Assembly: GCF_026571515.1 (NCBI RefSeq)
Contig: NW_026859932.1
Span: 186,001 to 245,795 of the forward strand
Reading direction: 5' to 3'
From: Ruditapes philippinarum
Taxonomy: Eukaryota
Length of the DNA stretch: 59,795 bases
The notes beneath the pieces were generated by a model. The model searched no databases and was not told where the DNA came from. It saw only the letters and a program-made list of their open reading frames with translations. This document shows, piece by piece, positions 1 to 58,380 of this stretch. Within the stretch, counting starts at the first letter, position 1; every line of letters begins with the position of its first letter. Made by a program: the position numbers and the translations under genes.

Positions 1-320
1 ACTTGTATTGATTTGTTTACTATTGATTAGAATTAAAAGCTAAATCTCAAGATATATGGTGTTTAGGTGTCTAATATTTTATGTATATTTTTTTATCTGA
101 GATAGGAAATATTAATTTCGAGCGGCATTGATATCAAACTATCTTATAGTCTTGTTCGCAGTTAAACATAAGTCATTATTCAACTTATAGTAATAAATCT
201 TGTTTTTATTATCATAGTTATTTCTTCAAACCTCGTTTCGAGAGGACGGGAAATAATACATTATTTTTATGTTTAGTTAATACAAATTTTATTTTAGTTC
301 GATTGTGTTGGCAGCTATAA

Positions 321-494
321 GGTTATTACAACACTCTAGAATCCGTTCCTGGAACCAACCAGTACTAAGCAATGAATGTAAAGTATCTTGCTCAAGGAAC
401 CAACGGCTTGCCCCTGACAGGGTTTGAACCCACACCGTAACCAATCCTTTGATTACTAGTCCGACGCGTTAACCACTCGTCCACGCCGTCACCT
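321..494 (-). mobile_element. tRNA-derived CORE-type SINE
   Basis: The reverse complement reads A-box-like TGGACGAGTGG, B-box-like GGTTCAAACC, then CCTTGAGCAAGATACTTTAC (resembles the CORE domain) and a 3' tail. Confidence 0.8.
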
Positions 495-2396
495 ACTTCT
501 TATGATTAATTCTCTTATAGGGGCTTCAGATGTCGAAAGTCTAAAAAAGTGTTAACCTTTCCAAAATAAGCATTTACAATTTTATGGTTGTTTTAAAAGA
601 TAAGTCTACATAGTAAGAAATATCATATTCTTGTATTACATGTTTATTTACGTACACGTATGTAGTGAAAGGAGTACTAGAATAGAGTCGTCTGTATAAA
701 TATTGGTTTAAGACATCCTTTGGACCAAAAGGCTTTATTAGCGTTCTAACATGCGCATAGAAACATGCTGGGATATTTTAGCTACAGCTAAAAGACGTCA
801 TAATTGATGTCAATGATGGTGTCTAAATCCATTTCGCATCAATTGATCATTCATTTCAATTTCCGTGTGTTTAACAAAGAAACGAAATATCAACGTGACA
901 ATTGTTCATTGGTTTCAAATAACATGCGTGAATAAATTGTAAGGAACCCTTTTACCAGCTTCGAAAAGTTGAGTTTTGTCCGTTATAATTGATTCTATTT
1001 TTTACGAATTTATACTTCATACTGTTTTGTCACGCAATAGTTGATGTCATGAATTCATATGCCTTTGAGAATATTCATTTTCTCTTATTTAGTAATGTGG
1101 AAATAACTGATTGTCTTTCCATGTTAAATAAAACGAAGATCAATTGAGACTTGTAAAAAATTTCAAATTGTAGAAGAGAGGAAGGACATGCTTTAAATAA
1201 AGAATTCAAATTTCTAATAAAAAATATTAAAACAAAGTATAGAAATAACTGAAAGCAACTTAGTTTAACTTTCTTAAAGCTTTTATGATACGATGGTATG
1301 ATGTTTCGATTACAACATTGTCAAAAAAAAAGGTTTTCTCCCATCTCGTGTTGCATTCAGATTTTTTAGCAAACAATAAAGTAAGTAAAAAATATTAAAA
1401 CCTTAAAGGTTTTGATAATGTTCACTTTCTATTTTAACATTGGACGGTGGGGAAGTAAAGAAAGGAAAGCAACCCAATGGTTCAAATCTTTGTACCCCTT
1501 TCTGTACTTACAAGTTTGACATTCTGACCTGTTTTCCTTTTTTCATTATTATTATTTTGTATCAGGAAATAAGAACTTTACATGAGATTTTGTAAATAAA
1601 TATAAGTGTTGTCTCTTAGGATCAATGATACAAGAATGAAACAAGTAATACAATCAACGTAAAATGCTGATAACTTTTTATAGTATTCAGTGATTAAATG
1701 TTTTACTACCTCAAAGAAATACATGGTGAACACGGAACTTCATGCTGTGCTCGGTGAACAGAAAATATCAATTTTTGTAAACCATTTAGTAAATAATAAA
1801 AATGATTGTATTCTTTCTATTTATTATGCCAATATTGCTTATACAGACAATAGAAAAGCCAAAACATATGACTTTAATAATATCCTCGCTATAATAGTAT
1901 AATAAATGTAAAGTAATATTTAGTCAGAGTCGAGATATAAACATAAATTGGATATCATATTAAAAATGCAGTTTTGTGAAAGGAATATATATCAATAATA
2001 TTTTTGAAATCTACATCAAATAATGTCAATATTAGCATTTTCCTCTGAATAGGGCCTCATGTCAAAATTAAATAATTTCATAAAGCGAAGACATAAAGCT
2101 AAGATCTGAAAGACACTTGAGTGTCACAATCTCTAACATTATCTTACGTGAAATTAAATAACTAAGGCTTTGGAGTAATTGATCTCCTGTTTTAAGAAGA
2201 AAAAAATCTCAAACAATTACATACAAGCAATGCTATGTACACACTCATATCTGCTTTAACTTCGATATCTAACAACAAATATAAACTTTAAATATCTCGG
2301 AGGTACGTTAAAAAAGCTCTAAAACAAACTTGTCTGCATTTTATGTAAAACGACAAGATATACATAACCCATTGCTTGACTAATTAAATGATATTT

Positions 2397-2465
2397 TATT
2401 GTTTGTTTGTTTTTTGTTTGGGTTAAACGGCACATAATGACACATAACTGGCCACATCGCACCAA
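2397..2465 (-). mobile_element. Decayed SINE 3' tail fragment (copies at ~10,588, ~19,620, ~32,520)
   Basis: GTTT repeats followed by GGGTTAAACGGCAC...GACACA...GGCCACATCGC, resembling the tail of the fuller SINE at 46,183. Confidence 0.5.
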
Positions 2466-2799
2466 TAACATTAAATGGTAAATACAAGGGTATAAAATGA
2501 GTTAGTGAAATCAGAAAAACACAGATTCATTTCTTTTACCTAGTCAATCAATGTTTTGGAAGAAACTGAGTAAAAAAAAAACATTTGGAGGTGAATTTAC
2601 TCGGTCCTATCACAAACCTGTGCAAGATCATGACATTTAAGGAGAAATGTTTGACACTGAATTTTTCATTGAAATCTATACAAAAATGAGCACCATTGCC
2701 TGTTAATAGATGAGATTATGTAACTCTAGTGTGTCCTATTCGACATCTAAGGAAACCATCTGGTCATTACGGTTTAGAAAAAATAGAGATAGCGACACG

Positions 2800-3110
2800 T
2801 TAAGGCAGGAATATTATTGATTACAAGAAAAGGAATCTTATTATTTGTGAGATTATTTAGTATCAGGTCAATGTAAAATCATTGTCAGATCAATAAACTG
2901 ATGTTCCTAATCTGTTTTGAGTCCTTAGGTCAATGGCTAAAGTGAGCTGTGACACATGATAGGAAATTATGAAATAATCTATAACTGGAAACGGGATAAA
3001 CCAGTTTTAATGTTACCTGGGAGGGACGTTGCTAATTAGAAACAAATGGGACCTATTTCTTTTTGGTCCTTAGGTTAATTGTCAATGTCACAATAGCCAT
3101 GAATGTAAAA
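2800..3110. mobile_element. Heavily decayed Helentron-associated satellite-like fragment (copies at ~11,020-11,310 and ~26,830-27,100)
   Basis: Two loosely repeated CCTA..TTTTG..GTCCTTAGGT(C/T)AAT..TGTGAC/GTCAC units, resembling 29,690-30,030. Confidence 0.35.
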
Positions 3111-5863
3111 TAATTGTTCGTTAAATAACTTAAGTCAAGACATTTTAATGAAACGCGACATTAATACACAAACCCTTAATAATTGCTTTGCCTTGTGCTT
3201 ATGATCAAATGGTCTCTCTTTCCATATATTTAATACTGCAAACAATAAGCGCTGTTGTCTTCGCATCGTTTCATAACACTTAGTGACATGCCCTATTAAA
3301 GCCTCTACATAAGGTGACAAAATCGATGAAGAACACTTTACTCATTTTATTTTGAAATCCGAACATGCTGATAACCTATTAGAGTCGTTATTACAAATGC
3401 TGGTATACGCTTTGAAACCAATGCAGCTACCAGTTTCAATTTCCTGTTGTATAATTATCAACACTGTATTTGACAAACAAAAAATAGAAATGACAATCGC
3501 ATTTATATTTCTTCATATTGTATTCTTTTCCCTAAAAGACACAATAGTAATTAGCTAATGGTTACGTCATTAACATACTCAATAAAGTTGTTCTTTAAAA
3601 AGAATTTGACCCGATCTGTCTCAAATTCAGATATTTGTTGTCTTTTGTTGTTTTTTGTCTGAATATTTGTTTCTATTTCGATTATTTTCTCAGTTACTTC
3701 TGATATACCAAATCAATTAATAAGCAGTCGTAAACTAGTATAAAAAAGAGCGGATTATATATTTTCAAGAGATTCCCAATCAATTCGATAACTTAAATGA
3801 CATTTTATATACATGTAGATATATATATTAATTCTGCAAGACGGTTAACTCACTTATTGTAACTTAACTTTGACATTTCCATTGCTTTTAAAAATTCATT
3901 TGCTCTGAGGGATTAGAATTTAGACGTTTGCTCATTTCAATAAACATTGCCGACACTGTTCTGAATATAAATTAGAAAGAAGAAACGTTTATTCCAATGA
4001 AGAGACAAGTTAGATCTTGTTTAACATCGCACTTAGTTTCTCGTCAATTTTCATTAAGAAATATTGAAGAAAATATTAAAGAAAACACGCCCCGGAGGTT
4101 CAATAACGCCGCAATGCTCTGCACGCAAAATATATTGTTTAGTTTTAATTTCAATCAAACACGGGCTAGTTCTAGAGAACAATGTTTGCAGTATATAGCA
4201 AATCAGGATACATGAGGTATATTTCTGTAATTAATGAGAAAATATCACCAAAAAGTCGTGCATTCAATGCAGATATCATGATTGCAAATGAATAAACAAA
4301 AAGTTTCAACTCATAACAAAAAGGACAATCATGATTTATGTTTTGTATTTAATTTCTAAAACATGAAATTGTTAACTTGACCTCAGTATAGTGAGCGCAT
4401 ACTTTAAATACATATATTAGTATTTTTATATTCTTTACATCATTTAAACTAGGCAATGAAAGATATTCTATTTTGAATACGACGGCAAAGCACACCATGC
4501 TGAATTTGATCAGCAAAGCAAGTTGAACAAAATCAAGGGTATTACACGTCCAAACATAACATCTTCAAGTAAAAGTAGAGACTTAATATAGCATCTGTCG
4601 TCAAAGTTGCAAGTCAACAATAAATTTCTGGTGTAATGCAGTGTAACTAAGTTATTATTCGTTATTTATCGAGGATAAAAGTACTTTATAAGATTATTTT
4701 GAATCAAGGCTCTGTTTGTTCTTAATATAAAAAAGGGACTAAATCTAAAACAATCGACCTGATCAACGCGTTATATAGAATTTGTTTGGTTCGATAATGA
4801 AACAAGAAATCAACTTGAATAAAAAAAAGCCTGATGCAGATTTCTAATAATATATTACAAAAAATATAAATTTACGAAACACAAAACAGTTTCGTATCTA
4901 ATTTAACATTTAATCGCATTTATCCATTTCAGAATGGAAAGGTAAACTTAAAAAATCATTGGTCTGGTATTAATATATTTTTAGTGTTGTAACTTTCCAA
5001 ATAAGTGTTACTGTTATTGTATGGTTGTTTTAAAAAATAAGTTTACATAGTATGGGATATAATATTCTTGTGTTTATATAGTGTCAGTCATACAGCAATT
5101 GAGAAGTCTGTTTAAATATTGGTTTAATTTCTGAAGAAACAAAATCAGTTTTCTTACATGCTCACATGAAAACGTGTTTATTATGTCGGATATATGAAAC
5201 CGAGGCTAAAACATTGTTATATATAATCATTCATTTCATGCTACTACGTGTTAAAAATAGAAACGGAATAAAAACGTAATAGAAACGGAATAAAAACGTG
5301 ATAATTATTCAATGTTTTCAAAACAATAAATACAATCTGTTTTATTTTCTAATAACATGCTTGCGTGAACAGTGAGAAAGCATTTTAGCAGCATCATAGA
5401 GTAAAGATTGAATTTCACTGCGGAGTTTTGTCCTTTTTCATTGACTCCAATGATTCACGAAATGCTGTTTGATACATTCTTCTCACGCGATATTGGATGT
5501 CATGAATATAGAAATATGAAAGACCTTTGAGGATACTCACTTTTTGTTAATTAATAATATTAAAATAAATGATTGTCCGAGTTAAAAATTGAGTCGTGTT
5601 AATAATTTCAAAAAGGTAGAAAGACACGCTTTGCATAAACAATTAACAATCTGTCATATGATAATGATTTTTGATTGAAAAGTCAACTGCGTCGTATCAT
5701 ATTTTATTTTCAACTGCGTCGTATCATTTCGTACAAATTATTATTTTCCTAGCAAATAAACATTTCTTTTTAATGAAATTTTAGTAAATGATGCAAAATG
5801 TTGAAGTTAATGATGTACTCTGAAATGAGTCTATGATTAATTTGAAGGAAAAAACGATGGATT

Positions 5864-6175: not shown

Positions 6176-7070
6176 ATAAAGTTTCCTTTTAAAAGGAAAG
6201 GCTTGCACATTTGTGCCTTCATCCCAACCCTTTAAAATTGTGTGTTTTTTTGGTCTCAATTTATTATCACATTTTTTTTTTGAATTACGGTATTTGTATA
6301 TCATAAAGGGTTTAGTTGGATTTTTTTTTTGGAAAACCGAATTTTTTTTTGTCAAAACGATTTGAAATCTATTCTCTATTGTATAAAACTAATAAAGAAA
6401 ATGATCAATCGTAAAAATACTAACGTGATACTGAAGAGCTACAGTAATGTGTACACATAGTGTGCACATTTCATTTCCCCTTTTTCGCAGCGAAATCATT
6501 CCTTTGCTTTATAGACAAGTAAATGCACTAAAATACTTCGTTTCGTGGTACCAATTAATAAGCATGTATCAACTATGTTACACGATCACAAATAGACGAT
6601 ATCAGCACCAAACTCCTCACAGCTGTTACGTCACGCTTTGCTACTTTAACTGTACAGATCAGGGGAAGTAACCGCTGCGAGTAGTGGGAAGGTTAATGAT
6701 ATGTATGGGCTATTTTTAGATTACCTCACCATTACGGTTTAAACCGATAAATCAAGTAAAAATAGAAATCCTATTTATATAAACAAACTGGGATTACCGA
6801 AGTAACTAAAATAGCTTAGATTTCCGTAATATTACTTCGTCTGATTCCGCAGTATGACGGAATCGCCCGAATTGTCACGATTGCAATCGGAACTACATCG
6901 GCTATTATCATTAATCCGAAGAGTGACGGAAAAGGCCGAAAAGTTGCGATTGGCACAATTGGAGCTGGTTTCCCGTGTAATCATGCACCAACAGATGTAA
7001 GCAGGAAACCACCTAACCGGAACAAGTTTTCCATATGAAATGGCTTGCAGCCGTGGCTGCAAGCCAAAAA
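6176..7070 (-). mobile_element. Non-autonomous Helentron-type (HINE-like) insertion, ~0.9 kb
   Basis: Absent from the paralogous sites at ~31,040 and ~14,610. Perfect 12-bp stem TGGCTTGCAGCC-GT-GGCTGCAAGCCA at 7041-7066. A matching subterminal GGCTTGCA (6200-6207) sits next to the palindrome TTTCCTTTTAAAAGGAAA (6182-6199). Ends are A/T runs. Confidence 0.7.
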
Positions 7071-8620
7071 TACTGCCCCCACTTTCTTAATTAATTAAAC
7101 TTCACAGGTAAATTCTGGCGGATATTTACATAAAATTACCTAGGCCACTTGAGTTATCTTTCAAGGGAAGTAAATTATAAATTGAAAGGAATTCTGTCAA
7201 AATGTTAATTTATTTTTAAGTTGAACAACCTTTCCATTAAAACTATTTATATTCTCAATATCGATGTAAATAACTGAAAATAACAGACGTTCACATTTTG
7301 GTCTAAATGAGGCATCTATACAAGTTTAAACAAGTGAAAGATGTACATGAAAAAGTGTCAGAAAGATCAATCTAACGTTTTTCCTTAATCATCAATACGG
7401 TATATTCGACAGACAAATGCTATATAGATATGTTTAAAGTAAGAGAAATATTTCTTTAGATGTCTCCCATTCTTTTTGAAAAAGAAAGTGATATGATGTC
7501 ACCCATTCCTTTTGAGATAAGATAGCAATAAGAAAGTAGATTTGTCATGAAAACGACTTAAGAGAATGTTAATGGTACACATTCATTTAAATCATAATAA
7601 GTTAAGATCCTAACTACTGCACCACACTTATAAGATAGGCCTTCAAATTAAGATGATTCTTTTTTTCTTTTTTTTAATAATTGTTTCTTTTTCGATTTTT
7701 GCTTTTTATTATGTCGGTTTCTCCAAATTTATCGAAACATATAATAAGCAGTCTTATTATCGCATAAAACAGGACATAATATATATTGGTTGCTTTGAAG
7801 ATTCCTAGTCAATTCATTTAGTTTTATGACATTTCAAATAGAAATAGAAATTAATTCTTTTAGACGTTTTCCTCTTTACTCATAGCTAAACGTTCGCATT
7901 TCCTTTGTTTTATTCCTTTAGTTTGCTCTGTGGGTGATAGTGCACCTGATAGTGCCATTTTCTGTAAATAATTGTTTTTGACGTCATCAATAAATTAGTA
8001 ATGTAATATAATGCGCTTCCCTCTTACTCCTTGTTTATCCAAGAATAATTTTAAAACAAGTGTAAATAGGTTTTGTTTGTATTTCAGTTTGATAAAACAC
8101 TGTAATTAATCAGATCAATGAGCGACATGTATCTTTGACAACAATACATAATATAGAATTTGTTAGGTTTAATTCGTGAAAGTTAGAAGTCAACGGGAAT
8201 AAAGTAAAGGTCAATGCACAGCCTTAGTATTACACACAAAGAATCACATCTACGGTTATTTAGGAATGGAACTATAAAGTTAAAAAGGTTGTTGGTCTGG
8301 ACTTGTATTGATTTGTTTACTATTGATTAGAATTAAAAGCTAAATCTCAAGATATATGGTGTTTAGGTGTCTAATATTTTATGTATATTTTTTTATCTGA
8401 GATAGGAAATATTAATTTCGAGCGGCATTGATATCAAACTATCTTATAGTCTTGTTCGCAGTTAAACATAAGTCATTATTCAACTTATAGTAATAAATCT
8501 TGTTTTTATTATCATAGTTATTTCTTCAAACCTCGTTTCGAGAGGACGGGAAATTGTACATTATTTTTATGTTTAGTTTATACAAATTTTATTTTAGTTC
8601 GATTGTGTTGGAAGCTATAA

Positions 8621-8740
8621 GGTTATTACAACACTCTAGAATCCGTTCCTGGAACCAACCAGTACTAAGCAGAACCCACACCGTGTCCAATCCTTAGATT
8701 ACTAGTCCGACGCGTTAACCACTCGGCCACGCCGTCACCT
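8621..8740 (-). mobile_element. Duplicate of the CORE-type SINE with a 54-bp internal deletion
   Basis: Same flanks as 321-494; lacks the equivalent of 372-425. Confidence 0.8.
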
Positions 8741-11700
8741 ACTTCTTATGATTAATTCTCTTACAGGGGCTTCGAATGTCGAAAGTCTAAAAAAAGTGTT
8801 AACCTTTCCAAAATAAGCCTTTACAATTTTATGGTTGTTTTAAAAGATAAGTCTACATAGTAAGAAATATCATATTCTTGTATTACATGTTTATTTACGT
8901 ACATGTATGTAGTGAAAGACGTACTTGAATAGAGTCGTCTGCATAAATATTCGTTTAAGACATCCTTTGAACCAAAAAGCTTTATTAGCGTTCTAACATG
9001 TGCATAGAAACATGCTGGGATATTTTAGCTACAGCTAAAAGACGTCATAATTGATGTCAATGATGGTGTCTAAATCCATTTCGCATCAATTGATCATTCA
9101 CTTTAATTTCCGTGTGTTTAAAAAAGAAACGAAATAAGAACGTGACAATTGTTCATTGGTTTCAAATAACATGCGTGAATGAATTGTAAGGAACCTTTTA
9201 ACCAGCTTCGAAAAGTTGAGTTTTGTCCGTTATAATTTATTCTATTTTTTACGAATTTATACTTCATACTGTTTTATCACGCAATAGTTGATGTCATGAA
9301 TTCATATGCCTTTGAGAATATTCATTTTCTCTTATTTAATTATGTGGAAATAACTGATTGTCTGTCCATGTTAAATAAAACGGAGATCAATTGAGACTTG
9401 TAAATAATTTCAAATTGTAGAAACGGTAGAGGACATGCCTTTAAATAAACATTCAAGTTCCAGTGTCTAATAAAGTATTAAAACAAAGTATAGAAATAAC
9501 TAAAGCAATTTACGTGTAACTTTCTAAATTTTTTATGATATGATGGGTTCGATGTTTCGATACAAATATTTGCAAAACTAATATTTTCCTCCCATCTCAT
9601 ATTGCTTATCAGATTTATAAAGCATACAATAACGTAAGTCAAATGTTAAAACTCAAAAGTTTTTGAAATAAGGTTCACTTTATATTTAACAACTGGACCG
9701 GTGGAACAAGTAAAGAAAAGAAAGCAAGCCAATGGTTTCAAAATGTTTGTACAACATTTCTAATGAAAATAACTGTTTTCCCTTTTCATTTATTACTATT
9801 TGCATCAAGGAAAGAATAACAAAAAGATAGGAGCAAATGAGACAAGAAATGAAACAAGTAATATAATCAACGTTAAATATACCTTTTTATAGTATTCAGT
9901 GAGTTAGAATGTTTGAATACCACACATAAATATTGGTGAACACGGAACATTCAATACTACTGGGTGCTGGTGAAACAGAAAATACTATTTTTGTAAAAAC
10001 TTTTAGTAAATTAAATGATTCTAATCGTTTTAATTCATTATGCCAATAAATATTATGTTTTTTAGCCTGAAACATAATAACTTCAATAATCTCCGCTATT
10101 ATGTATAATTAATGTAAGGTTATATTTAGTCTGAAACGACATATAAACATTAAGTGGATATAATAAGTAACAATGTAGTTTTCTAATATCTTAAAATCTA
10201 CATCAAATAGACGTCAAAAGTAGTCATTTTCCCTCTGGATAGAGCGCAGTCAAATTAAATAATTTCAATAAAGCGAAGATATTAATCTAAGATCTGAAAG
10301 ACATTCGAGTGTCACAATCTTTAACATTATCTGACGTGAACTTAAATAACTAAGACTTAGGAGTAATTGATATCCTGTTTTAAGGAAAAAAAATCTCAAA
10401 CAATTACATACAAGCAATGCTATGCACACACTCATATAATTATGCTTTAACTTCGATATCTAACAACAAGTATAAACTTTAAGTATCTCGGAGGTACATT
10501 AAAAAAGCTCTAAAACAAACTTGTCTGCCTTTTATGTAAAACGACAAGATAAACATAACCCATTGCTTGACTAATTAAATGATATTTTATTGTTTGTTTG
10601 TTTTTTGTTTGGGTTAAACGGCACATACTGACACATAACTGGCCACATCGCGCCAAACACTGTAATTGTTAACACTAAATGGTAAATACAAGGGTATAAA
10701 ATGAGTTAGTAAATCAGAAAACACAGATTCATTTCTTTTACCTAGTCAATCAATGTTTTGGAAGAAACTGAGTAAAAAACATTTGGAGGTGAATTTACTC
10801 GGTCCTATCACAAACCTGTGCAAGATCATGACATTTAAGGAGAAATGTTTGACACTGTAATATTCATTGAAATCTATACAAAAATGAGCACCATTGCCTG
10901 TTAATAGATGAGACTATGTAACTCTAGTGTGTCCTATTCGACATCTAAGGAAACCATCTGGCCATTAAGGTTAAGAAGAAATAGAGATAGCGACACGTTA
11001 AGGCAGGAATATTATTGATTACAAGAAAAGGAATCTTATTATTTGTGAGATTATTTAGTATCAGGTCAATGTAAAATCATTGTCAGATCAATAAACTGAT
11101 GTTCCTAATCTGTTTTGAGTCCTTAGGTCAATGGCTAAAGTGAGCTGTGACACATGATAGGAAATTATGAAATAATCTATAACTGGAAACGGGATAAACC
11201 AGTTTTAATGTTACCTGGGAGGGACGTTGCTAATTAGAAACAAATGGGACCTATTTATTTTTGGTCCTTAGGTTAATTGTCAATGTCACAATAGCCATGA
11301 ATGTAAAATAATTGTTCGTTAAATAACTTAAGTCAAGACATTTTAATGAAACGCGACATTAATACACAAACCCTTAATAATTGCTTTGCCTTGTGCTTAT
11401 GATCAAATGGTCTCTCTTTCCATATATTTAATACTGCAAACAATAAGTGCTGTTGTCTTCGCATCGTTTCATAACACATAGTGACATGCCCTATTAAAGC
11501 CTCTACATAGGGTGACAAAATCGATGAAGAACACTGTACTCATTTTATTTTCCGAACATGCTGATAACCTATTAGAGTCGTTATTAAAAATGCTGGTATA
11601 CGCTTTGAAACCAATGCAGCTACCAGTTTCAATTTCCTGTTGTATAAGTTTCAACACTGTATTTGACAAACAAAAAATAGAAATGACAATCGCATTTATA

Positions 11701-14700
11701 TTTCTTCATATTGTATTCTTTTCCCTAAAAGACACAATAGTAATTAGCTAATGGTTACGTCATTTACATACTCAATAAAGTTGTACTTTAAAAATAATTT
11801 GACCCGATCTGTCTCAAATTCAGATATTTGTTGTCTTTTGTTGTTTTTTGTCTGAATATTTGTTTCTATTTCGATTATTTTCTCAGTTACTTCTGATATA
11901 CCAAATCAAATAATAAGCAGTCGTAAACTAGTATAAAAAAGAGCGGATTATATATTTTCAAGAGATTCCCAATCAATTCGATAAATTAAATGACATTTTA
12001 TATACATGTAGATATATAAATAAATTCTGCAAGACGGTTAACTCACTTATTGTAACTTAACTTTGACATTTCCATTGCTTTTAAAAATGCATTTGCTCTG
12101 AGGGATTAGAATTTAGACGTTTGCTCATTTCAATAAACATTGCCGACACTGTTCTGAATATAAATTAGAAAGAAGAAACGTTTATTCCCATGAAGGGACA
12201 AGTTAGATCTTGTTTTACATCGCACTTAGTTTCTCGTCAATTTTCATTAAGAAATATTGAAGAAAATATTAAAGAAAACACACCCCGGAGGTTCAATAAC
12301 GCAGCAATGCTCTGCACGCGAAATATATAATTCTAGAGAACAATGTTTGCAGTATATAGCAAATCAGGATACATGAGGTATATTTCTGTAATTAATGAGA
12401 AAATATCACCAAAAAGTCGTGCATTCAATGCAGATATCATGATTGCAAATGAATAAACAAAATGTTTCAACTCATAACAAAAAGGACAATCATGATTTAT
12501 GTTTTGTATTTAATTTCTAAAACATGAAATTGTTAACTTGATCTCAGTATAGTGAGCGCATACTTTAAATACATATATTAGTATTTTTATATTCTTTACA
12601 TCATTTAAACAAGGCAATGAAAGATATTCTATTTTGAATACGACGGCAACGAACACCATGCTAAATTTGATCAGCAAAGCAAGTTGAACAAAATCAAGGG
12701 TATTACACGTCCAAACATAATATCTTCAAGTAAAAGTAGAGACTTAATATAGCATCTGTCGTCAAAGTTGCAAGTCAACAATAAATTTCTGGTGTAATGC
12801 ATGTGTAACTAAGTTATTATTCGTTATTTTATCGAGGATAAAAAGTACTGTTATATAAGATTATTTGAATCAAGGCTCTGTTTGTTCTTAATATGAAAAA
12901 GGGACTAATATCTAAAACAATCAACTGATCCAACGGTGCAGCGTTATATAGAAATTTGTTTGGTCGAATAATGAAACAAGAAATCACTTGAATAAAAAAA
13001 GCGCAAGCAGATTTCTAATAATATATTAATAAAAAATATAAATTTAGAAACACAAACAGTTTCGTACTAATTTAACATTTAATCGCGTTTATCCATTTTC
13101 AGAATGGAAAGGTAAACTTAAAATCATTGGTCTGGTATTAAATATTTTAGTGTTGTAAACTTTCCCATATAAGTGTTACTGTTATTGTATGTTTGTTAAC
13201 ATAGTTATGGGAATATAATATTCTTGTGTTTATATAGTGGTCAGTCAACAGCAATTGAGAAGTATGTTTAAATATGGTTTAATTTCTGAAGAAAACAAAA
13301 ATAGTTTTCTTACATGCTCAAACATGAAACGTGTTTATTATGTTCGGATATATCCGAGTAAAACATTGGTTTATAAATTAATCAAAGTCCTTATATAATT
13401 CATTCATTTCATAGCTACTACGCATGTTGCATGCTTTGCTTAATCACGATAACGGAATAGGCAAGACCATGTAATTTAATAAACGAGGAAATACAGTTTT
13501 TTTGGTTTATATAACGATAAACTAATTCATGATAGTATTTTCAAAAATAATTTAACACATATTATCTTTCTCTGATTTCTAATTACCGTAGCATGCGTTA
13601 GAACCCGGAGAGTCACAAAGCTATTTTTAGCTAGCTATTTCTAAATACCGAAGTAAATAGGGCATATTTCATGGCATGGGATTATTATGTCCTTTTCTTG
13701 ACTTCCAATGATTTCATCGAAATAGCCTCTGTGTTTGTTTACTATCTTCAACGCGACACGATATATAAATATCTAGCGGATTGTTCATTGAACACATTTG
13801 ACTCGAAAGAACGCTTTGGGTAATAGCCACCTGGTTTTTGTTTCTTTTTGTTCTAGATTTTAATAACTCATCATTATTAATATATAAATTTTCAGATATC
13901 GTCTCCGTAAGTTTAATGAGCTGATTACTTGGAGCACAAGGAGGGTTTTATTCACATGTAGAATGCTTTTATTAATCCTAACAATCTGTCTCGTCATCCT
14001 GAGAGAAAAGATGAGGGGCATCTTCATATATTTTATTTGGTTTCACTAGCACGTCGTTATTACACCATTATATTTCGTTATTCTTGTTTATCACCAAATA
14101 ATGATTAATTCTTTTTTGTATTTAGTTAATGACTCGCATTATATATCATTGAAGTTACTGAGGAGCAACGAAGTTATTCTGTAGAATTATTATTTAGAAG
14201 TGCGTAAAAACGACCTGGATTATAGCATATGAACTTGGTCTGCGGAGTCCAATCTTATTTTTTTTTGTGCCTTATTATAATCATTGCTATAGATTCGATC
14301 TATGGACTTTTTGATGATTTAGTGTGTAGAGACATGTTTATTTTTTCATTTTAGAACCGAAAGCGAGAAATATACATATTTAGACAGCGTGTGGGTATTC
14401 AGTGATATGATTTGTTGTCAAGGATCACATCCCTTTTCCACAAAAATAGTAAGTTATACAAACAACGAAAAACATGACCTTGATTATTATCTTACAGTTT
14501 GATTTTGTTTTTTTACAGGCGTTACATTATTATTCTACACGTGCATAGTTGTTTGGATATTGATTAATTGGATTTGATGCCGTATATAGAGCTGTCATAA
14601 ATATATATAAAACTGTCCCCTACATCTTATTAATCTACTAGTGTGAAGATTTTCATCTGATGCGATATTCATATAAAATTTACTAGGCGCGATTGAGTAT

Positions 14701-39584: not shown

Positions 39585-39626
39585 GAGTTAATAAGTAGGT
39601 TAGTTTGTTTGTAAGTTAGTTAGTTC

Positions 39627-39690
<64 letters not shown>

Positions 39691-39749
39691 TAATTAATAA
39701 GTTAGTAAGTAAGTCAGTCAGTCAGTCAGTCAATCAGTCAGTTAGTTAG
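39585..39749. repeat. Compound microsatellite (GTTA)n/(GTAA)n/(GTCA)n
   Basis: Read directly; the purest GTTA run is ~39,627-39,690. Confidence 0.95.
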
Positions 39750-42700: not shown

Positions 42701-45387
42701 GAAAAGGAAACATGACATTTAATAGACGTTTTATGTACATAATATTATTTGGCGCAAACGTGGCGAGTTAACATTCAATTTGTGTCCTGACAAAGTATAA
42801 TGTCCGTTACTTTTATTTAATTGTTTTTTTTTCAAAAATAACATATCTTATACTTAAAAGAAACAAATGTGTGGTTTGATAACAACAACTCATCAAATCC
42901 AAGAGCTACTTATTGCTAACTAGAGCATTTACAATACAACTCGTTTGGTTCAGGAAGTTAAAATTAGCCACAAATCCAATAAAAATCTAAATTGTTAGTT
43001 GAAAAATATTTCAAAACAGGAATTGGTTCTTCCTTATTGCAAAAATAACTTAGCCGTTAGCTTTAAAAACAAGCAGTTATTTTCTTTGAAATAAAGATTA
43101 GTAAAAAGTCGTTTGTCTTAACTTGTTAAAAGGATGTATTCTATTCTAGCATTTATCGATAAATACTAAGATATATAGTGAGCATTATATTATGATTTTA
43201 GATAAGGTTTTTCATTGACAATCCATATTCAATTTAAACGGAGTTTATATTTTAAAACGATCACCTTATTTGATGTATTAAATCGTGCCTTCTTTTATTC
43301 CCATCTTTTATAGTTTGCTCAGATCACTTTTCCTGAAATATTTTATGATTTATGCTCCTATACAAGCTTGAGTTAACGCTAGTACTTTTCAAATAAGGAA
43401 CTAATTTAGACTCAGAATTGTTTTATGATAAAGTTTCCTAAATAAATGTTGTTATAATTATATAGATGATTGAAAAGATAAGTTTACAAGGTGATCATGG
43501 CCGTGAAACAATTGAATCGTCTACATCAAAGGAACCATAATTTATTCTGGTGTTATTTCAGGAGTTCCATCAAAGTTGTGACAAGCACAAAGACATTTTG
43601 GTCCAAAAAATTCATATGGATTTACCACGTATTATTCTAGAATTGAAATAAGAACGTGATAAATTTAAATTGCATGTGTGTAGAAATTGTAAGAACTCAG
43701 AACGGTAATAAAATTTACTACATTTATGTTAAAAAACTGCTGTTCGGTTCTTTCTATAAACGGGATTATTATACTATTGTGTGCCATCAATATTGCAATA
43801 TGAGGTCTTCGAGGATGTTTATTTCCTTCTATTAAATTACACTGAAGTAAACTATTGTCTCTTCACGTGAAATAAAAGGAGATCAATAACGGGTGAAAAA
43901 TACATTCGAAATGCTAAAAGCAAATATAAACAAGTAAATTGTAATTACAGCAAGATTTGAAAAAGAAATTATATGACTAAATTTGTGATTTATAATCATT
44001 TTATACAAACGAGAGAAAGCTTAAAACAATTTAAAAGATATTACATTTAAAGTGAATTGATTCATAATGGAAGGTATGCAAAACCATAAAAAAATATTTT
44101 GATAGTATTTAGTACAATATATCCGAACACACCGCAACATAATTCAATACGGATTGATATTTATAAGTATCCGATATTATATCGTTATATATAACCTTTA
44201 ATAAAGTGTTCCAGAACAAAACATAATTATTCATCATATAAATGTTCATACTATTATTACTTAGAATTATATCAACATTTTTCTCTGAAGTATCATAATG
44301 ATTCATTTGTATGTGCCCATTGTAGAAAATCCACTATATCTAAAAGAATTCTGATATAAAATTTTGAAAGGTATTTTTTGCTTTTTCATGTTGCTTTCCG
44401 AAAAATACTTATCTAACAATAATGTTAGTCATAGATAAAACAAATTATTTGCTAAACTTGGACTAAGACTTGTGAGCAAGTAAACAAAAGATAGAAATAA
44501 CATAACGGAATCACAATAATTCAAAAAGATCTCTTGTTTGGACAATATTTAATCATAACTATGTAAAATTGAAATCAATTTATAATTGACATTTACTACA
44601 AATGAAGCTGTTAGCTCAGTTATGTCCTAATGTCTTATGTTTCTAAAATATTTTAGGTAATTAATTTGATAATTTGTCTCTCAATTTTCCATTCACTTTA
44701 AAATCCCCACATTAATTTATAAAATACAAACTGGTATTGGGTACATTTGTGTGTATCATATAAAATTAAACAAAGTCATAGTTTCTTAAAGGGGCTTTGA
44801 TACAGTTTTATGTCAGTTAAAATCCTGTAAAACATCATATAAAAGATCAGAATTATCATATAAAAGATCAGGAACACACGCTCTGCCTTAACATACAAAC
44901 CACAATGCAACAGAATAATGACTTAACCAAGCAATCTCTACTTTACAAATTTGGGAAATATTCCAAAATCATTATCATGGATAAAATTACTTCTATTTTG
45001 AAGTATCCAGGAAACAAAGGATTGAACAACAATATATCACAGATTACTCTGCTATTCTCAGAAAACTGTTTCTCAGTAATTGCTTTATACCAGAACTAAT
45101 TTCTTGGAAAATAATATTTTTACCAAACACCCGTTTTTGCTCTAGAAGTTTTTGTTGAATTTAGATTAACTTTCGTCTTTATTTATGATACTTTGATTAT
45201 TTAGTTATGCACCTTACTCAATGGACGATAATTGTTCTATTAAAATAACACTGTAAGCAGGTTGTATAAAAAATTTGTACAAAGTCAAACTCGCTTATTT
45301 AAATGGTACCCAGTAAAGTTGAATAAACTTAAATCTTGTTCATTAAAATGAGAATTTTGATACTAAATAGTATTATCTAAAATATGA

Positions 45388-48251: not shown

Positions 48252-49729
48252 GTAAGATTTTTACTGATTTTTTATGTTATCTAAGATTTCCTCCATTCAA
48301 GATGTCCGTTATCTGAATTTTGTGTAATATGACGTGATTTCTGTTACGAAGGCGCTGGACGAAAATACACGTTACAATGTTAAGGGGCTAAATGACATGT
48401 GATAAGTGTTGAAACGTCCATGTGGTTCTTTGAGCAAAAGTAAAAGGAAAATACAATAAAAATTGAATCAAAATGGAGAGAAAGTCCCAGATTATTTTAG
48501 AAGAAAATGTTTAACGGGCGTTTCATAGACGATTATTATGTTTGCGGAATGGTAAAATAGTTTCCAGTTCCAACAGACCACTGTTACCGTGAAGATTCAC
48601 AATAAAGATGTACCAAAGTGCGAAATTCCGCTCCGGAATTTTTTCTTTGTTTGAAGAATAAAATAAACAAGTAAAAAATTTCATTTACATGGGAATATCC
48701 CATTTATACTCTGCATGGTAATATTCCAACCAAAATAATCTGTTTTCAAAATAATTTTGACTTCCATTAATATAAATTGGCTTTTTCTCAAGTATTCAAA
48801 CATTGTTAAGCATACAGCTCTTCAAATAAAATATTTACAGAAATAAATACCATCAGACATGTTTGAAGTTTTTTGAAAATCAATTTTGATAAGAAACACA
48901 CACAAAAAAAATTGTTTTAAATTGAATGCATGTAAAGGCTGCAGTGTCTTTCATTTCGGAAATGTATATGAAAAATCGATATAATACATGTAAAAGACGT
49001 TGATTTGCTGTTCTTGTTAAAAACAATTACATTATAATTGCCATGTTCTTATAGTTTGTAACTTGTTTTATCGTATTATTGACATTTATTGTATTTGCAA
49101 TGTATCTATGTTCGTTTTTAGTTGATTACATAAAATGACAAAATAAAGCTTAGAAGAACAAAACAAAATATGCTTGCCATGGAATACTAGTAATGCCTGT
49201 AAGAGCAACAAAGAAAAATAATAAAAAAAACCAAATGAGTGTCCGAATTCTGTCAACTTCTGCTTTTTACTAGTCAAATTGTTTAATTTCTCTTTTGCAG
49301 TAACAAGACGGCCACGTTAAAATTCATTTAATGCATTTAGTTTTTATGGTTAAAAATCAGCACAATACCTTTGACAAATGAAATATGTTTATAATATGTA
49401 TTGTTTGTCTATAAGCTGGGTGATTGCCTAGTAGCAAGAATGTATGTATCACACATAAACATTATTAATACGCGTCAAACTCTGGTTAAAAACAAAACGT
49501 CAGATCAAAACAAACTTAAAATATTTTATAATAGACAAAATTACTTTTCATTCATTTTATGTGAAATCACACAAAAGCATTAACAGCAAATTTGTATCAA
49601 TCACTTGTTGCGAAATAATTACTATCACAAGTCATTAAAACACCGATGTCATCAGATGACAAAATCTGAAAATCACGTTTTAAGCACAGAACACCCGCTT
49701 TGTTTGTTTGTCTGTTGTAAATAAACTAT

Positions 49730-49858
49730 CTGTGTTATGTGATATCTGATATCTGGAGTCAGGGCACATTACATTGACAGATGTATCATTTAAAAGGTTT
49801 CCATCAGCACGGTCTATACAAGCTCAATTATGCTATCAGTGTGCCCTGACAGATAACA
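49730..49858. mobile_element. Small MITE-like element
   Basis: Perfect 11-bp inverted repeat GTCAGGGCACA (49,758-49,768) / TGTGCCCTGAC (49,840-49,850), with a TATCTG/CAGATA extension. Confidence 0.5.
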
Positions 49859-50054
49859 AAGAATAATACATTACGCTATCGATTTTGTTATCTTAACTTT
49901 ATTACAACTGTCTAAAATGCTTGTAAAAATTATTTGTTTGGCAAAGATAGAAGAAAATGTCATTTTCAAAAACACCAAATCAAATATGACGTTTATTATT
50001 TAAAAAAAAAAACATTTTTAAATATTTCAAATGTATTTAAAGGGGAAAAATATG

Positions 50055-52815: not shown

Positions 52816-55800
52816 GAAAAAATATCTAGCAAGCTTTCAAAAATTTTTTGGGTTTTAACTTGGTGCCCTTCATGCCTGAATAAATTTCGAAGGGCAGCCC
52901 AGATTCATTGCAAAATTTTAAATTATCTATTATCTGTTTAAGGGAAAACGCATCATTTACAGCAACAAAAAAAAATTCTTTCAATAAAGAATTTAAATTT
53001 CTGTTTGGGTTGACCAAAAAAAAACCGTTTTTTTTAGGCAATTTTCCCCAAAATAAACGAAATAAAAACCATTTTTGTCGGGGGAAAAAATTACTTTTTT
53101 TTTGCAAATCTCTTGTTGTAATTTTTTCATTTTTCCTGTATCTGCCCGACGGGTACGAGAATTATCCATGTGTGCCCAAAAATTTTAAAAATATTAAGAG
53201 GGATATTTAAAAATACTTTTCAGTTTAAATTATGGTGGAAAGGGGTTGTCCATAAAAAAGGGGAAACACCCGATACGGTAATGGCTTTGGGGCATAAATG
53301 TTATTTTAAAAATAACTGTATTAAAAAGATTCTAAACCTTTTTAAAACCATTTTTAAATAATGGGGTGGGGTTTCAAATATTAAAAAGTTTTTTGATTTT
53401 TAAAAAAAATTTTGAAAAAAAAACTGGGGGAGGACCCTTTTTTTGGGTTTTTTTTTTAAGTTGTTTCTTTTTAAAAACCCCCCGGGCCTTCTCTTTTTGA
53501 ATGCATTCAAGGGTTTTTATCAAGGGCTGTTTTTTTTTATTTTTACAGGCAAAAAAAAAGTACCCGTTAGACCAAAAAAGTTATTTTTTAAAACCCAAAG
53601 TGAACCCTGCCGCCCTTTTCGAAACTCGTAATTTGACAAAATCTATAAGGAAAAACCCTTCCAAACCCTTTGTTTAAAAAAATTTACATGTGATGCCTTT
53701 TTTTAGATGGAAATTTAAAAATGCTGGAAAAAAATTTTAAAATAAAAAGGGAGGGTTTTAGTTTTTAAAATTTTCCCAAAAAAGGGAAGAAAAACCCCTG
53801 CATGGGCAAAAATTTAAAATTTGGGCATTACAAAAATCACAAAGGGAAATTTTTCCCTTTAGAAAATATTGTTTTAAACCCTCAAAAGGAAAGAATTTTA
53901 AAAACAAATTAAAAGGAAATTTAAAAAACCATAAAAAATGATATATATTTAAAGTATTAAATTTTTTGACGCTTGTTTTAGAAATTTAATTTTGCCCTTA
54001 AAAAGATAAAAGACTGGTTTTTTACGTTTATCCCCTTTAAAAACCCTTGGGGGGTTTTTTGTAAGAAAGGAGGCTTTAAATTAAAGACTTAAATCGGCTT
54101 TTTTAAAAAAGCGGGCCTTTTCCCCGATTTTACTAATTTTTTACCCGGGCAATATTATTTAAAGGGTTAAAATGGTAGCTCTGCAAATTTAGTCTTAAAA
54201 AAAACATGAGAGGGGTAAAAAACAAATGAAATTTTTAAAAAAATTTCTTCATGGAAAAATGTCGAAAAAAGGCTTTCCCGTTTTGGGAATATATTGTTTT
54301 TTCGACCGACCAATAGATTTAATGCGGGATAACAAATTGATCCAACAAAATCAAATAAAATTAGTTGAAATATATATATTGTATTATTATATAATTATTT
54401 AACTAAGTGGTTTAAACTGGATGAGTTCTAAGAAACATAAATCGAACTTAAATGTGTTAATGAATCAGAATGTGCTAAGAAAAAAGTATTAATCCGAGAT
54501 TCTTGTTAAACGATTGATTCTTTAAAGGAATCTTACCCATGTAGTGTTTCTGTTATGAAATATTTTTTAAACTATTCGAGGTTTGTTTTACCATTCTTTC
54601 CAATAATTTATAAAATAATAAATATAGTTGATAATTGAAAGCTTAGTTCTGGCAATCTATATATATTCTCTATCCTAAAGCCGATAACAACATCAGTGAT
54701 ACGGTGATATAACAACACTAAACAAATGTAAGTTATTAAGTTATCTAAATATACTTGTCCCCATAGGAGATTGAGAAGTTAGGTGTCTTTGCTCGATTGG
54801 ATGTTTTATTCTCTTTTAAATTTTACATATTAGATGCTATCTGAAAAGTTCAAGAAATAACAAACGAAAAAAAGGAAAGGTTACTTCTATAAAATTCCTT
54901 TAAACGTCGCATTTAGTAAAAAAATAAAATGAGAACAAGATCAACATAAGGAAAAGGAACATGACATAATAGACGTAATTCTGTACATAATATTATATTG
55001 GCGCAAACGGTGCGAGTCCGAACAATTCATTTGTGTCCTGAACAAAGTTGAATGTCGTAATTACTTTTATTTAATGTTTTTTTTTTAAGATAACATACCT
55101 TAAACTTAAAAGAAACAAATGTGTGGTTTGATTAACAAACAACCATTATCAAGACGCAAGAGCTACTTATGCTAACTAGAGCATATTACAATAAACAACT
55201 CGTTTGTTCAGGAAGTTAAAATTAGCCACAAATCCAATAAAATCAAATTGTTAGTTGAAAAAATATTTCAAAAACAGGAATGGGTTCTCCTATTGCAAAA
55301 TAACTTAGCCGTTACTTAAAAAACAAGCAAGTATTTTCTTGAATAAAATAGAAAAAAGTCGTTGTCTTAACTGTTAAAAGGGTTATTTCTATTCTATATG
55401 CATTATCGATAAAGTACTAGAGGAGAGAGAGGAGAGATAGTTATGATTTTAGATAGAGGTTTTCATTGCAATCCATATCAATTTGAAACGGATTGTATAT
55501 TTTTAAACGATACACTTATTCTGATGTATTAAAATCGTTGCTTCTTTATTCCTCATTTTTATAGTTTGCTCAGATCACTTTTTCCTGAAATATTTTATGA
55601 TTTATGCTCCTATACAAGCTTGAGTTAACGCTAGTACTTTTCAAATAAGGAACTAATTTAGACTCAGAATTGTTTTATGATAAAGTTTCCTAAATAAATG
55701 TTGTTATAATTATATAGATGATTGAAAAGATAAGTTTACAAGGTGATCATGGCCGTGAAACAATTGAATCGTCTACATCAATGGAACTATAATATATTCT

Positions 55801-58380
55801 GGTGCCATGAGTTCAATCAAAGTTGTTACAGGCACAAACACATTTTGGTCCAAAAAATTCATATGGATTTACCACGTATTATTTTAGACGTGATAAAGTT
55901 CTAAGCGTTGAAATTGCATGGATGTAGAAATTGTAAGAACTTGGAACGTAATAAAATTTACTACTACTAACATTACTTTTTATGTTAAAACACTGCTGTT
56001 CGGTTCTTTCTATAAACGGGATTATTATACTATTGTGTGCCAATCAATAATTGCAATAATATCTCTGAGATGTTTATTCCTTTCTAATAAGATTACACTG
56101 AGTAAACGATTGTCGCTCTTCACGAAATAAAAGGAGATCAATAACCGGGTGAAAAAATACAATTCGAAATGATAAGAAGCAAATATAAACAAGTAATTTA
56201 ATTACAGCCAAGATTGAAAAAGAAATTATATTACAAATTTGTGATTTATTTAACATTTATACCAAACGAGGAGAAAAAGCTAAAAACAATTTAAAAGATA
56301 TTACATTAAATGAATTGATTCATAATGGAAGTATGCAAAACCATAAAAAATATTTGATAGCATTTAGTACAATAATCCGAACAATCCCGCACATAATTCC
56401 CCCCAACAAATTACGGAAAATTTTTTGAATATTTATAAGTAATCGCGAATTATGTTCGTTATATAATAAACCTAATAAAAGTGTTCCAGAACAAAACATA
56501 ATTATTCATCATATAAATGTTCATACTTTATTACTTAGAATTAGATCAACATTTTTCTCTCAAAAACTATTTTGAAGTATCATTATGATTCATTTGTATT
56601 GTTTTATTAATATTTGAAATACTATTGAAAATGTGCCCATTGTAGAAAAATCCACTTTATCTAAAAGAATTCTGTAATAAAATTAATTCTTGAAGGTATT
56701 TTTTTCTGTTTCATGTTGCTTTCCGAAAAGTACTTATCTAACAATAATGTTAGTCATTAATAAATCAAAGAGAAGGCTTTCGTAATTATTTGTTAAACTT
56801 ATACTAAGGCTTCCAGGCAAGTAAACAAAAGATGAAAGTTACATAACGAAATCACATCATTCAAATAGTTCTCTTGTTTGGACCACATTTGATAAAATTA
56901 ACCACGTAAAGTTGAAATCAATTTATAATAGTCATTAATATTTACTACAAATGAAAGTTAATTGCTCAATTATGTCTTATTGTCTTATGTTTCTAAAATA
57001 TTTAAGGTAATTAATCTGATAATTTGTCTCTTTATTTTTGATGAACTTTAAAATTCCTACATTAATTTATAAATTGCAAAATCGATAAACATGATTTGAG
57101 TATTGGGTACATTTGTGTGTATGATAAAATTAAACAAAGTCATATTTTCTTAAATAGGCTTTGGTACAGTTATCTGTCAGTTAAAATCTTGTTAAACATT
57201 ATAATAAAGAAACGTAACGACACGTTCTGCTTTAACAATAACAAACCACAAGCGAAGCAGAATAATGACTAATATCCTAAAATCATATCATGAGTTTTGT
57301 ATCTCAGGAAAACAAAGGATGACAACAATCCAACAGATTACTCTGCTATTCCAATTCTCAGTAATTGCTTTATACGCAGAAAACTAATTTCTTGAAATAA
57401 TATTTTACCAAACACATCGTTAGAAGTTTTGTCAAAGATTAACTTCGTCTTTATCTTGATTATTTAAGTATTCACCTGCTCATGAACGATAATTGTTCTA
57501 ATTAAGAACACTGTAAGCAGTGCTAAAAAATATTAGTACACGGAGGTCAGGATTCTCTGTTGTTTAAAAAGGTAACCGCAAGTAAAGTTATATTAAATAA
57601 TCTCTTGTTCATTAAAATGATATTAACTCAAGTATTATCTAAAAATTAAAAGCAAAATCACCAAGAAAGGGCGCGTTAGAACCACCCCCAGCGATCCAAG
57701 CAGACCAAAACCCGCCAATAGAAGCCAGCAGGTTCCCCGAGAAGTCAGGGCAACAAAGGCAAATTCGGACGGGGTGATTACTTGATAATGTATTAAGAGG
57801 AATAATTGAGAAACCGACAAGAGGAAATTAAAAGATAAAGTTAATAATACACGTTTTAAAATGAATTTCAGTTTAAAAATAATTATGGTGAAAATTGCCA
57901 ACAAACGAAGCAATGTGTTCGTAATTTTTAATAAATTCAATTTTTAAGAAGAAGCCTAATGTTTATTTGGTTTAAATTTAACACTTTTTCGCATATTATC
58001 TGCTAAACAAAGACGCAATTTAACGATCACGGGATTTACTTAAAGGCCGGGGTAGCAATATAATGAGCAAACGTGCATTGTTATTCACTCGAAAGTATCA
58101 TTTACCACATAAGACGTTAGAGATTCCAACATGCTCGGTCATTACTTAACATTTTGATATTGTAATTGCTAAGATTAAATTTGCTTATTGTTTACAACCC
58201 TACACAAGTTTTTATCTCATCAACTCGTGAAACCATTCCAAACATTCATTTATTTAAATACATTTGCCTCAGATCGTATCAACAAATAAGGATATTAAAC
58301 GTAAAATAATTTTAGATGAAGCCAAAACCGTACTTGTGTTTTTGCAAAGACATAACATTAGGATTAATAAGCATTTTAAA

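What the first reader, a model, noticed from the sequence alone, without database searches (positions are those of the whole stretch)
1..56300. Higher-order array of ~10 old, co-oriented non-coding units with ordered, preferentially retained blocks
Seen: most of the window is built from one ~3-4.5 kb unit. Blocks A (~230 bp), B (~170 bp), C/D, E and F (~200 bp) stay alignable between the most distant copies (e.g. 3,280 vs 37,272 vs 41,340), while spacers vary in length (A-to-B ~600 to ~1,170 bp) and collect SINEs, HINEs and a microsatellite. No copy has an intact ORF, and I found no TIR/LTR ends on the unit. Inference: repeated local amplification over several time depths, on one strand, without coding capacity, fits a small-RNA-producing locus (unistrand piRNA cluster or a repeated lncRNA/miRNA/snoRNA host array). 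It also fits a cis-regulatory array or the graveyard of a tandem gene family. This is the best candidate for an undescribed system here, but neutral decay of segmental duplications is not excluded.
Basis: partly seen in the sequence, partly recalled or inferred. Interest (0 to 1): 0.7.

Follow-up and report, generated by a model that had tools for sequence, protein, structure and literature searches.

The report
Decaying array of non-coding gene-like units
This stretch of animal DNA holds about six old side-by-side copies of a 2-4 kb unit that codes for no protein and keeps three short blocks better than the DNA between them; the blocks are likely the promoter and splice signals of a mostly dead family of non-coding RNA genes, and several further copies are likely assembly errors.

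Summary
The array is real but smaller than reported. Six A-bearing units and three partial ones are credible; 7,943-13,384, 13,400-18,202 and probably 53,126-59,157 are likely haplotype or read-error copies. Blocks A and F, less so B, stay alignable across five old lineages while spacers do not, more than random loss gives in a crude simulation. The blocks occur only at this locus; one flagged block is a dispersed retroelement end. They show no codon signal, protein relative, Rfam match or shared fold. On the minus strand they carry an ordered donor (E), acceptor (B) and acceptor (A); no signal survives correction for 20 tests. The one clearly RNA-like run had almost no reads on them. Best reading (0.4): a decaying tandem family of spliced non-coding transcription units. 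Rivals: duplicated enhancers, neutral decay. A piRNA or small-RNA array is unsupported; small RNA was not tested. This scan noted similar arrays elsewhere in this genome (e1-9810235, e1-9925195).

The parts
629..1188 (.). Right end (blocks E and F) of a unit whose A and B lie 1.9 and 1.1 kb left of the window
2382..2810 (-). 3' end of a dispersed repeat, LINE-like by recalled motif; further copies at 10,573, 19,619, 26,405, 32,503. Not an array-specific block
   Evidence: 376 candidates, 40 scored, matches on many contigs at 71-82%
3227..5625 (-). Unit 3227: A 3,227-3,530, B 3,863-4,172, C 4,209-4,487, E 5,046-5,281, F 5,368-5,625; minus-strand donor 5,157, acceptor 3,960, donor 3,853, acceptor 3,463
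   Evidence: DNA support
7070..7934 (.). Orphan fragment of the A-B spacer (83-89% to 31,043-31,648)
7943..13384 (.). Likely false duplication (second haplotype with errors) of -358..5,229
   Evidence: 2.3-4.2% divergent over most of its length; run X1 depth 0.3-3 at 9,339-13,340 vs 5-15 at 668-5,336, with an unbroken 444-base contig at depth 12.6
13400..18202 (-). Likely fold-back artefact: degraded inverted copy of 8,377-13,300, centred near 13.3 kb
   Evidence: anti-diagonal matches; insertion-biased differences 22 vs 3; GC skew 0.48; X1 depth 0.1-2.6
18800..21560 (-). Partial unit: C 19,062, repeat end 19,619, E 20,550 (donor 20,684), F 20,907; real paralog of 31,931-34,779 (11% divergent)
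24765..26459 (-). Unit 24765: A, B (acceptors 24,997 and 25,938), C; E and F absent
27206..29579 (-). Unit 27206, best-kept signal set: donor 29,115, acceptor 27,937, donor 27,828, acceptor 27,424; spliced model has no ATG frame over 42 aa
30451..34312 (-). Unit 30451: A 30,451, B 31,600, C 32,002, E 33,723, F 34,058; TATAAA 34,126, donor 33,855, acceptors 31,697 and 30,694; repeat insertions fall between donor and acceptor
33096..33313 (-). Very high-copy short repeat (SINE-like by recalled shape)
37241..40112 (-). Unit 37241: A, B 38,133, F 39,833; acceptors 38,189 and 37,451 kept, E donor lost; carries a dispersed repeat (38,714-39,391) and (TTAG)47 (39,564-39,749)
41250..43923 (-). Unit 41250: A, weak B 42,491, F 43,651; acceptors 42,594 and 41,524 kept, E donor lost
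49704..49901 (-). Inverted, much older copy of the A core alone (62-65% identical), no B or F beside it
   Evidence: E 4e-9; 25.9 bits vs 3.7 on a reversed control
53126..59157 (.). Probable low-quality duplicate of 40,872-46,999 (homopolymer-smeared); not tested with reads

Best explanation
The locus is an old tandem array of a 2-4 kb non-coding unit that likely began as a spliced, minus-strand RNA polymerase II gene without a protein product, and whose copies are likely mostly dead now. Shown: the unit was copied locally at several depths (block divergence about 22-30% in the oldest pairs, 11-16% overall in younger pairs); the spacers lost different large pieces and took in repeats; A and F, less so B, survived in all old lineages; none of the blocks was under protein or RNA-fold constraint. 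Inferred: unequal crossing-over made the copies. F would be the promoter, F-left plus E a first exon ending at CAT|GTAAGA, B a branch point, pyrimidine tract and acceptor with an exon of about 105 nt, and A an acceptor with a further exon. Selection on these signals while copies were active would have protected the blocks from deletion, and repeats would have been tolerated in the introns. Signals were then lost copy by copy.
For: Retention: coverage across the deepest split A 83%, F 59%, B 24%, spacers and flanks 0-5%. Under position-independent loss, two 150-bp blocks survive in all five lineages in at most 13% of runs given one, three in under 1% (12 of 12 parameter sets). In three younger real pairs blocks differ by 9.7% vs 14.7% elsewhere, p=0.007; 5 of 6 block-pairs are below their pair's background. 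Minus-strand signals in gene order: B acceptor with pyrimidine tract in 7 of 8 copies, column-permutation p=0.005; E donor GTAAGA in 4 of 7 copies, p=0.025; A acceptor in 7 of 7; GTRAGT left of B in 3 of 8; TATAAA in F in 3 of 7. Units 37241 and 41250 keep the B acceptor with different letters (TTTAG, TTTCAG) and a pyrimidine-rich tract. In units 30451 and 37241 the dispersed repeats lie between the predicted donor and acceptor. Spliced models for 2 of 2 units built have no ATG frame over 43 aa.
Against: No transcript seen: run X24 gave depth 0-0.1 on nearly all low-copy bins of 1-19,999 and 24,000-43,999; X22 and X23 gave low, unstranded depth; no start or end peaks and no splice joint among the rows shown. 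Of 20 splice tests none survives Bonferroni correction; a plus-strand acceptor in C scores p=0.048 and the A acceptor only p=0.18. The splice matrices are my own generic ones. No shared AATAAA or donor ends exon A. Block edges do not match exon edges well: the B acceptor sits mid-block. The young-pair effect weakens when columns near gaps are dropped (p=0.03 at 10 nt, 0.14 at 20 nt), F is more diverged than background in one pair, and a repeat remnant differs by 10.6% vs 9.3% for A and B in the same pair. The old inverted A copy lacks the A acceptor and has no B or F. Site-rate variation inside A and F is not significant.
Confidence: 0.4

Rival explanations
1. The blocks are DNA-level cis-regulatory modules (enhancer-like, above all A) multiplied by segmental duplication; the splice-like words are chance.
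For: Block size 200-300 bp, no coding or fold signal. Invariant columns in A are clumped (p=0.006; neutral simulations z 0.18 +/- 1.05). CATGC and TGACA are 8.5- and 3.6-fold enriched in A. The A core alone survives in an older inverted copy, which has the lowest divergence of the four-contig windows, 0.070 vs 0.095-0.22. No RNA seen. A TMEM151 gene ends 32 kb left of the window.
Against: B and F show no clumping (p=0.47, 0.41). The dip at 49.7 kb is one of roughly 11 independent windows, and three-contig windows go lower. It does not explain the B acceptor in 7 of 8 copies. No chromatin data.
Confidence: 0.22
2. Neutral decay of tandem duplications: the blocks are what escaped deletion, sharpened by how units are recognised and by old gene conversion between indel-free stretches.
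For: Surviving spacer pieces are about as identical (71-77%) as blocks (75-79%) among the three closer lineages. Single units do lose A, B, E or F. Identity in young pairs is patchy. The young-pair effect is not significant away from gaps. Window vs contig C7575 shows A 5.1%, F 4.6%, non-block 5.0%.
Against: The simulation makes shared retention of two or three blocks unlikely (crude: star tree, no conversion, no regional rates). The block trees show no well-supported conflict that would mark conversion. The same core of A is what survives in an independent inverted copy.
Confidence: 0.2
3. Graveyard of a protein-coding tandem family; blocks are old exons, or the promoter and non-coding leader exons of a gene whose coding body is gone.
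For: Minus-strand frames in A (pN/pS 0.42-0.46, window p=0.01-0.03) and B (0.45, p=0.03), 3 of 17 windows, uncorrected. Acceptors as above.
Against: No synonymous excess; deletions a multiple of three in 24 of 121; codon positions equally variable in A (p=0.48-0.97). No relative in 1.84 billion representatives, three word-indexed searches, PDB, Pfam or elsewhere in the genome. Coding function lost before the radiation cannot explain retention during it.
Confidence: 0.11
4. A one-strand piRNA cluster or a host array for miRNA, snoRNA or another structured small RNA.
For: Co-oriented copies. piRNA loci overlap tandem duplications in chicken (PMC9925758, passages).
Against: No Rfam match at gathering score; 1 match at E 0.92. 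Mean folding z -0.34 to 0.37 and SCI 0.00-0.25 on both strands; 0 pairs for F and 3 for B. Array core 6% high-copy repeat vs 17% background. piRNA production gives no reason to keep blocks.
Confidence: 0.07

Closest known systems
Spliced lincRNA genes under promoter and splice-site constraint (PMC4245815, PMC3975061; abstracts and outlines read)
   Same: No coding or fold constraint, weak conservation in patches, constraint near splice signals, splice-site turnover between copies.
   Different: Those are expressed human single-copy genes. Here there is a tandem family with no transcript shown and no defined 3' end.
Regulatory element families made by segmental duplication (Weaver and Lowe, bioRxiv 10.64898/2025.12.03.692127; abstract and outline read)
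   Same: Families of similar non-coding elements confined to duplicated segments, not spread as transposons.
   Different: Defined there by open chromatin and reporter tests in human cells, in young duplications. Here copies are 11-30% diverged and no activity is tested.
Molluscan piRNA clusters (PMC6128900; passages read)
   Same: Intergenic, little coding sequence.
   Different: Most described clusters are enriched in young transposons; this array core is repeat-poor. No small-RNA data here.
Haplotig and chimeric duplication in heterozygous bivalve assemblies (bioRxiv 10.1101/2022.08.29.505626; abstract and outline read)
   Same: Both haplotypes of one locus assembled as separate copies.
   Different: Explains only the youngest copies, not the six old units.

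Membership tests
Spliced lncRNA gene family | No protein-coding signal | tested here: met
Spliced lncRNA gene family | Ordered donor and acceptor sites on one strand, kept across copies | tested here: inconclusive
   B acceptor 7 of 8 (p=0.005), E donor 4 of 7 (p=0.025), A acceptor 7 of 7 (p=0.18); 20 tests
Spliced lncRNA gene family | A transcript over 200 nt with these junctions | tested here: inconclusive
   None in 4-6% samples of three runs of unknown tissue, laid on 40 of 60 kb
Spliced lncRNA gene family | Promoter and polyadenylation signal | tested here: inconclusive
   TATAAA in 3 of 7 F copies; no shared AATAAA
Segmentally duplicated enhancer family | Copies confined to duplicated segments | tested here: met
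Segmentally duplicated enhancer family | Open chromatin or reporter activity | not testable with these tools
   no chromatin data
piRNA cluster | Dense 24-31 nt, 1U-biased reads from one strand | not testable with these tools
   no small-RNA run was offered
piRNA cluster | Enrichment in transposon sequence | tested here: not met
   6% vs 17%; the measure sees only high-copy repeats
miRNA / snoRNA / structured RNA array | Rfam match or conserved fold with covariation | tested here: not met
Dispersed transposon family | Dispersed copies and defined termini | tested here: not met
   A, B, C, E, F local only; no hit at E below 0.3 in 600 kb of random sequence; no shared inverted ends. Very old, low-copy families are not excluded
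Protein-coding pseudogene array | Codon-position bias, frame-keeping indels or a protein relative | tested here: not met
   and all protein searches; weak window-level signal

The most novel reading that the evidence does not exclude
A lineage-specific family of spliced non-coding genes that lives by birth and death like an immune gene cluster, with at least one copy still active in an unsampled tissue and transcribed towards the neighbouring TMEM151 gene. With the similar arrays noted elsewhere in this genome, it would be a recurring class of tandem lncRNA families in this animal group.
Probability: 0.12. Interest if true: 0.6.

Novelty: new member of a known kind. Interest (0 to 1): 0.3.

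Why it matters
If the gene reading holds, paralogous copies 11-30% apart are a natural experiment on which bases a non-coding gene must keep (promoter, donor, acceptor) without needing other species, in an animal group where tandem families are described mainly for proteins (listing). If it is neutral or enhancer-like it is ordinary genome turnover. Either way it warns that about a third of this window is likely duplicated assembly, which inflates copy counts.

Tried and rejected
Coding on the plus strand: an LRR-like look by eye; the profile found 0 of 1.84 billion proteins, no PDB match, and one 17-residue viral-contig match of 29 candidates judged chance. Coding on the minus strand: searches gave no outside relative; weak own-genome hits (C13291, C14658) did not match the DNA profiles. 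Pfam on 15 and 24 frames: nothing above cut-off in the array. tRNA: none. Rfam: none. Conserved fold: rejected. Transposon with kept ends: no shared inverted ends, and homology runs past A and F in closer pairs. Dispersed ancient repeat: a 17-base pattern gave 8 matches vs 6 for its control, 4 of them known copies, the other 4 chance; no A hit in 600 kb. Metagenome scan with an A pattern: 0. No RNA holder listed for 24,500-34,400; this blank is not evidence. The protein atlas could not be used, so a feature-based protein search is open. A weak A-like hit in C7105 (E 0.03, biased) is unresolved. Contigs C7575, C7105, C3826 and C7696 overlap the locus, but four versions cannot all be alleles of one diploid, so their divergence is weak evidence. 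Literature searches listed no description of this locus or of a tandem lncRNA array in bivalves; the library lacks most subscription papers, and no supplements were read.
Full report
Setting. The window is the last 59,795 bases of contig C8419 of a 1.41-Gb assembly in 15,874 contigs, 30% GC. Earlier scan notes call the organism Manila clam; I did not test that. A TMEM151 gene ends 32 kb to the left. The array starts about 12 kb left of the window. The ground to the right is repeat-rich and overlaps contigs C7575, C7105 and C3826.

The observation. Self-comparison and iterated profiles recover the unit and its order A-B-C-E-F on one strand. Five old lineages (units at -1,888, 27,206, 30,451, 37,241, 41,250) were compared in all 10 pairs. 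A, B and F align far above shuffled controls in all 10; spacers and flanks are near background in the 6 pairs across the deepest split, but partly alignable among the three closer lineages. Coverage across the deepest split is A 83%, F 59%, B 24%, spacers and flanks 0-5%; in the other pairs it is 94, 82, 82 and 7-21%, at similar identity in blocks and in surviving spacer pieces. The A-B spacer is homologous throughout, but each lineage lost different large pieces. The contrast is therefore mainly resistance to deletion. A simple simulation of position-independent loss keeps a second shared block in at most 13% of runs and a third in under 1%; it ignores shared ancestry, conversion and regional rates. 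In three younger real pairs, blocks differ by 9.7% and the rest by 14.7% (p=0.007). This falls to p=0.03 and 0.14 when 10 or 20 bases beside gaps are dropped. F runs the other way in one pair, and a repeat remnant is about as conserved as A and B.

Copy number. Run X1 matches 668-5,336 at depth 5-15 with long near-perfect contigs, one unbroken for 444 bases at double depth, but covers 9,339-18,676 at only 0.1-3. Run X5 lays one haplotype-depth contig set on each of the two young copies. I read 7,943-13,384 as the second haplotype assembled in tandem. The inverted copy at 15,970-18,202 lies on an anti-diagonal centred near 13.3 kb, has 22 short insertions against 3 deletions in one segment, and a further match lies near the same diagonal: a likely fold-back read. 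The copy at 53,126-59,157 has smeared homopolymers and many short indels but was not tested with reads. Units at 24-27 kb and 40.6-43.5 kb are supported by near-identical X1 contigs, unit 37241 by a 1,136-base contig with 16 differences. Six A-bearing units and three partial ones remain.

What the blocks are not. They are not dispersed: DNA searches of the genome with A, B+C and E+F return this locus and overlapping contigs only (8, 8 and 11 matches), and 600 kb of random sequence holds no A, E or F hit and one B and one C hit at E 0.3 or worse. These searches would miss copies below about 65-70% identity. The block at 2,382 and its four relatives is a dispersed repeat end. The blocks are not coding: no synonymous excess in six blocks, 24 of 121 deletions a multiple of three, no codon periodicity, and no relatives. 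Three of 17 windows gave low pN/pS in minus-strand frames, but every old lineage carries frameshifts or stops there. They are not structured RNA: no Rfam family, folding z near zero and SCI at most 0.25 on both strands.

What they may be. I first saw a conserved minus-strand acceptor at the right edge of A and scattered signals elsewhere and rated them weak. On the minus strand, in order: TATAAA in F in 3 of 7 copies; CAT|GTAAGA in E in 4 of 7 (lost in 37241 and 41250, changed in the 629 copy); a pyrimidine tract and TATATTCAG or a variant in B in 7 of 8; GTRAGT left of B in 3 of 8 (two lineages); a YAG acceptor in A in 7 of 7. Column permutation gives p=0.005 for the B acceptor, 0.025 for the E donor and 0.18 for the A acceptor; a plus-strand acceptor in C gives 0.048; 20 tests were run. 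Repeat insertions in units 30451 and 37241 fall inside the predicted first intron. Spliced models of the two units with all four sites encode at most 43 residues. No shared poly(A) signal was found. This is suggestive, not established.

Expression. Three runs labelled RNA were laid on 24,000-43,999 and two on 1-19,999, each sampled at 4-6%. X24 covers almost only dispersed repeats. X22 and X23 give low unstranded depth and look DNA-rich. There are no start or end peaks and no splice joints among the rows shown (many rows were cut).

The case for DNA-level control. A alone survives in a 62-65% identical inverted copy at 49.7-49.9 kb, without the acceptor. Its invariant columns are mildly clumped, and that copy is the least variable four-contig window of its neighbourhood (weak). 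This keeps the enhancer reading alive. A may be regulatory while B and E are splice-related.

Comparison with what is known. The pattern works like spliced lincRNA genes, whose constraint is largely splice- and promoter-related (PMC4245815, PMC3975061; abstracts), and like regulatory element families made by segmental duplication (10.64898/2025.12.03.692127; abstract). Membership in either needs a transcript or chromatin activity, which is not shown. Most molluscan piRNA clusters described in PMC6128900 (passages) are transposon-enriched; this core has 6% high-copy repeat against 17% in random stretches. Ten literature searches listed no account of this locus. The LINE, SINE and other element labels are recalled from motifs, not from a repeat library.

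Verdict. A real old tandem array with modestly constrained non-coding blocks; most likely a decaying family of minus-strand spliced non-coding units (0.4), else duplicated regulatory modules (0.22), neutral decay (0.2), coding remnants (0.11) or a small-RNA locus (0.07). New member of a known kind; interest 0.3.

Noticed in passing
L007:5697-7682 (window -34,303..-32,318, +): 662-aa single-frame TMEM151-family gene (PF14857, E 1.8e-152), the nearest clear gene left of the array.
   Followed up: partly
L010:1701-2879 (+) and L010:3899-4774 (-): Harbinger-type element (393-aa frame with DDE_Tnp_4 plus a facing 292-aa frame) inserted into a unit flank at about -9.3 to -3.4 kb; contig C7696 lacks it, so the insertion may be polymorphic.
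   Followed up: partly
window -100,000..-44,000 (L001-L006): A second nest of 1-2.5 kb duplications at about 75-86% identity in both orientations, without A-F blocks.
   Followed up: no
window 43,204-52,423: Segment shared at 81-91% with contigs C7105, C7575 and C3826, more versions than one diploid can hold as alleles.
   Followed up: partly
window 1,242-2,041 vs 9,490-10,230: A 24%-divergent patch inside an otherwise 96-98% identical pair; X1 supports the first copy over 863 bases with one difference.
   Followed up: partly
runs X22 and X23: Labelled RNA-Seq but with unstranded, near-identical, repeat-dominated profiles, like DNA-rich libraries (inference).
   Followed up: no
C7105:40,629-44,603; C7575:10,720-18,283; C8419:466-4,612, 48,347-50,007, 55,654-56,478: Long frames resembling a DIRS-like retroelement, a PIF1-like helicase, a transposase, a fucosyltransferase and a membrane protein; labels recalled from motifs, not searched.
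   Followed up: no
C7105:83,496-83,615: Weak A-like match (10.8 bits, E 0.03, high bias) that may be a third, older copy.
   Followed up: partly
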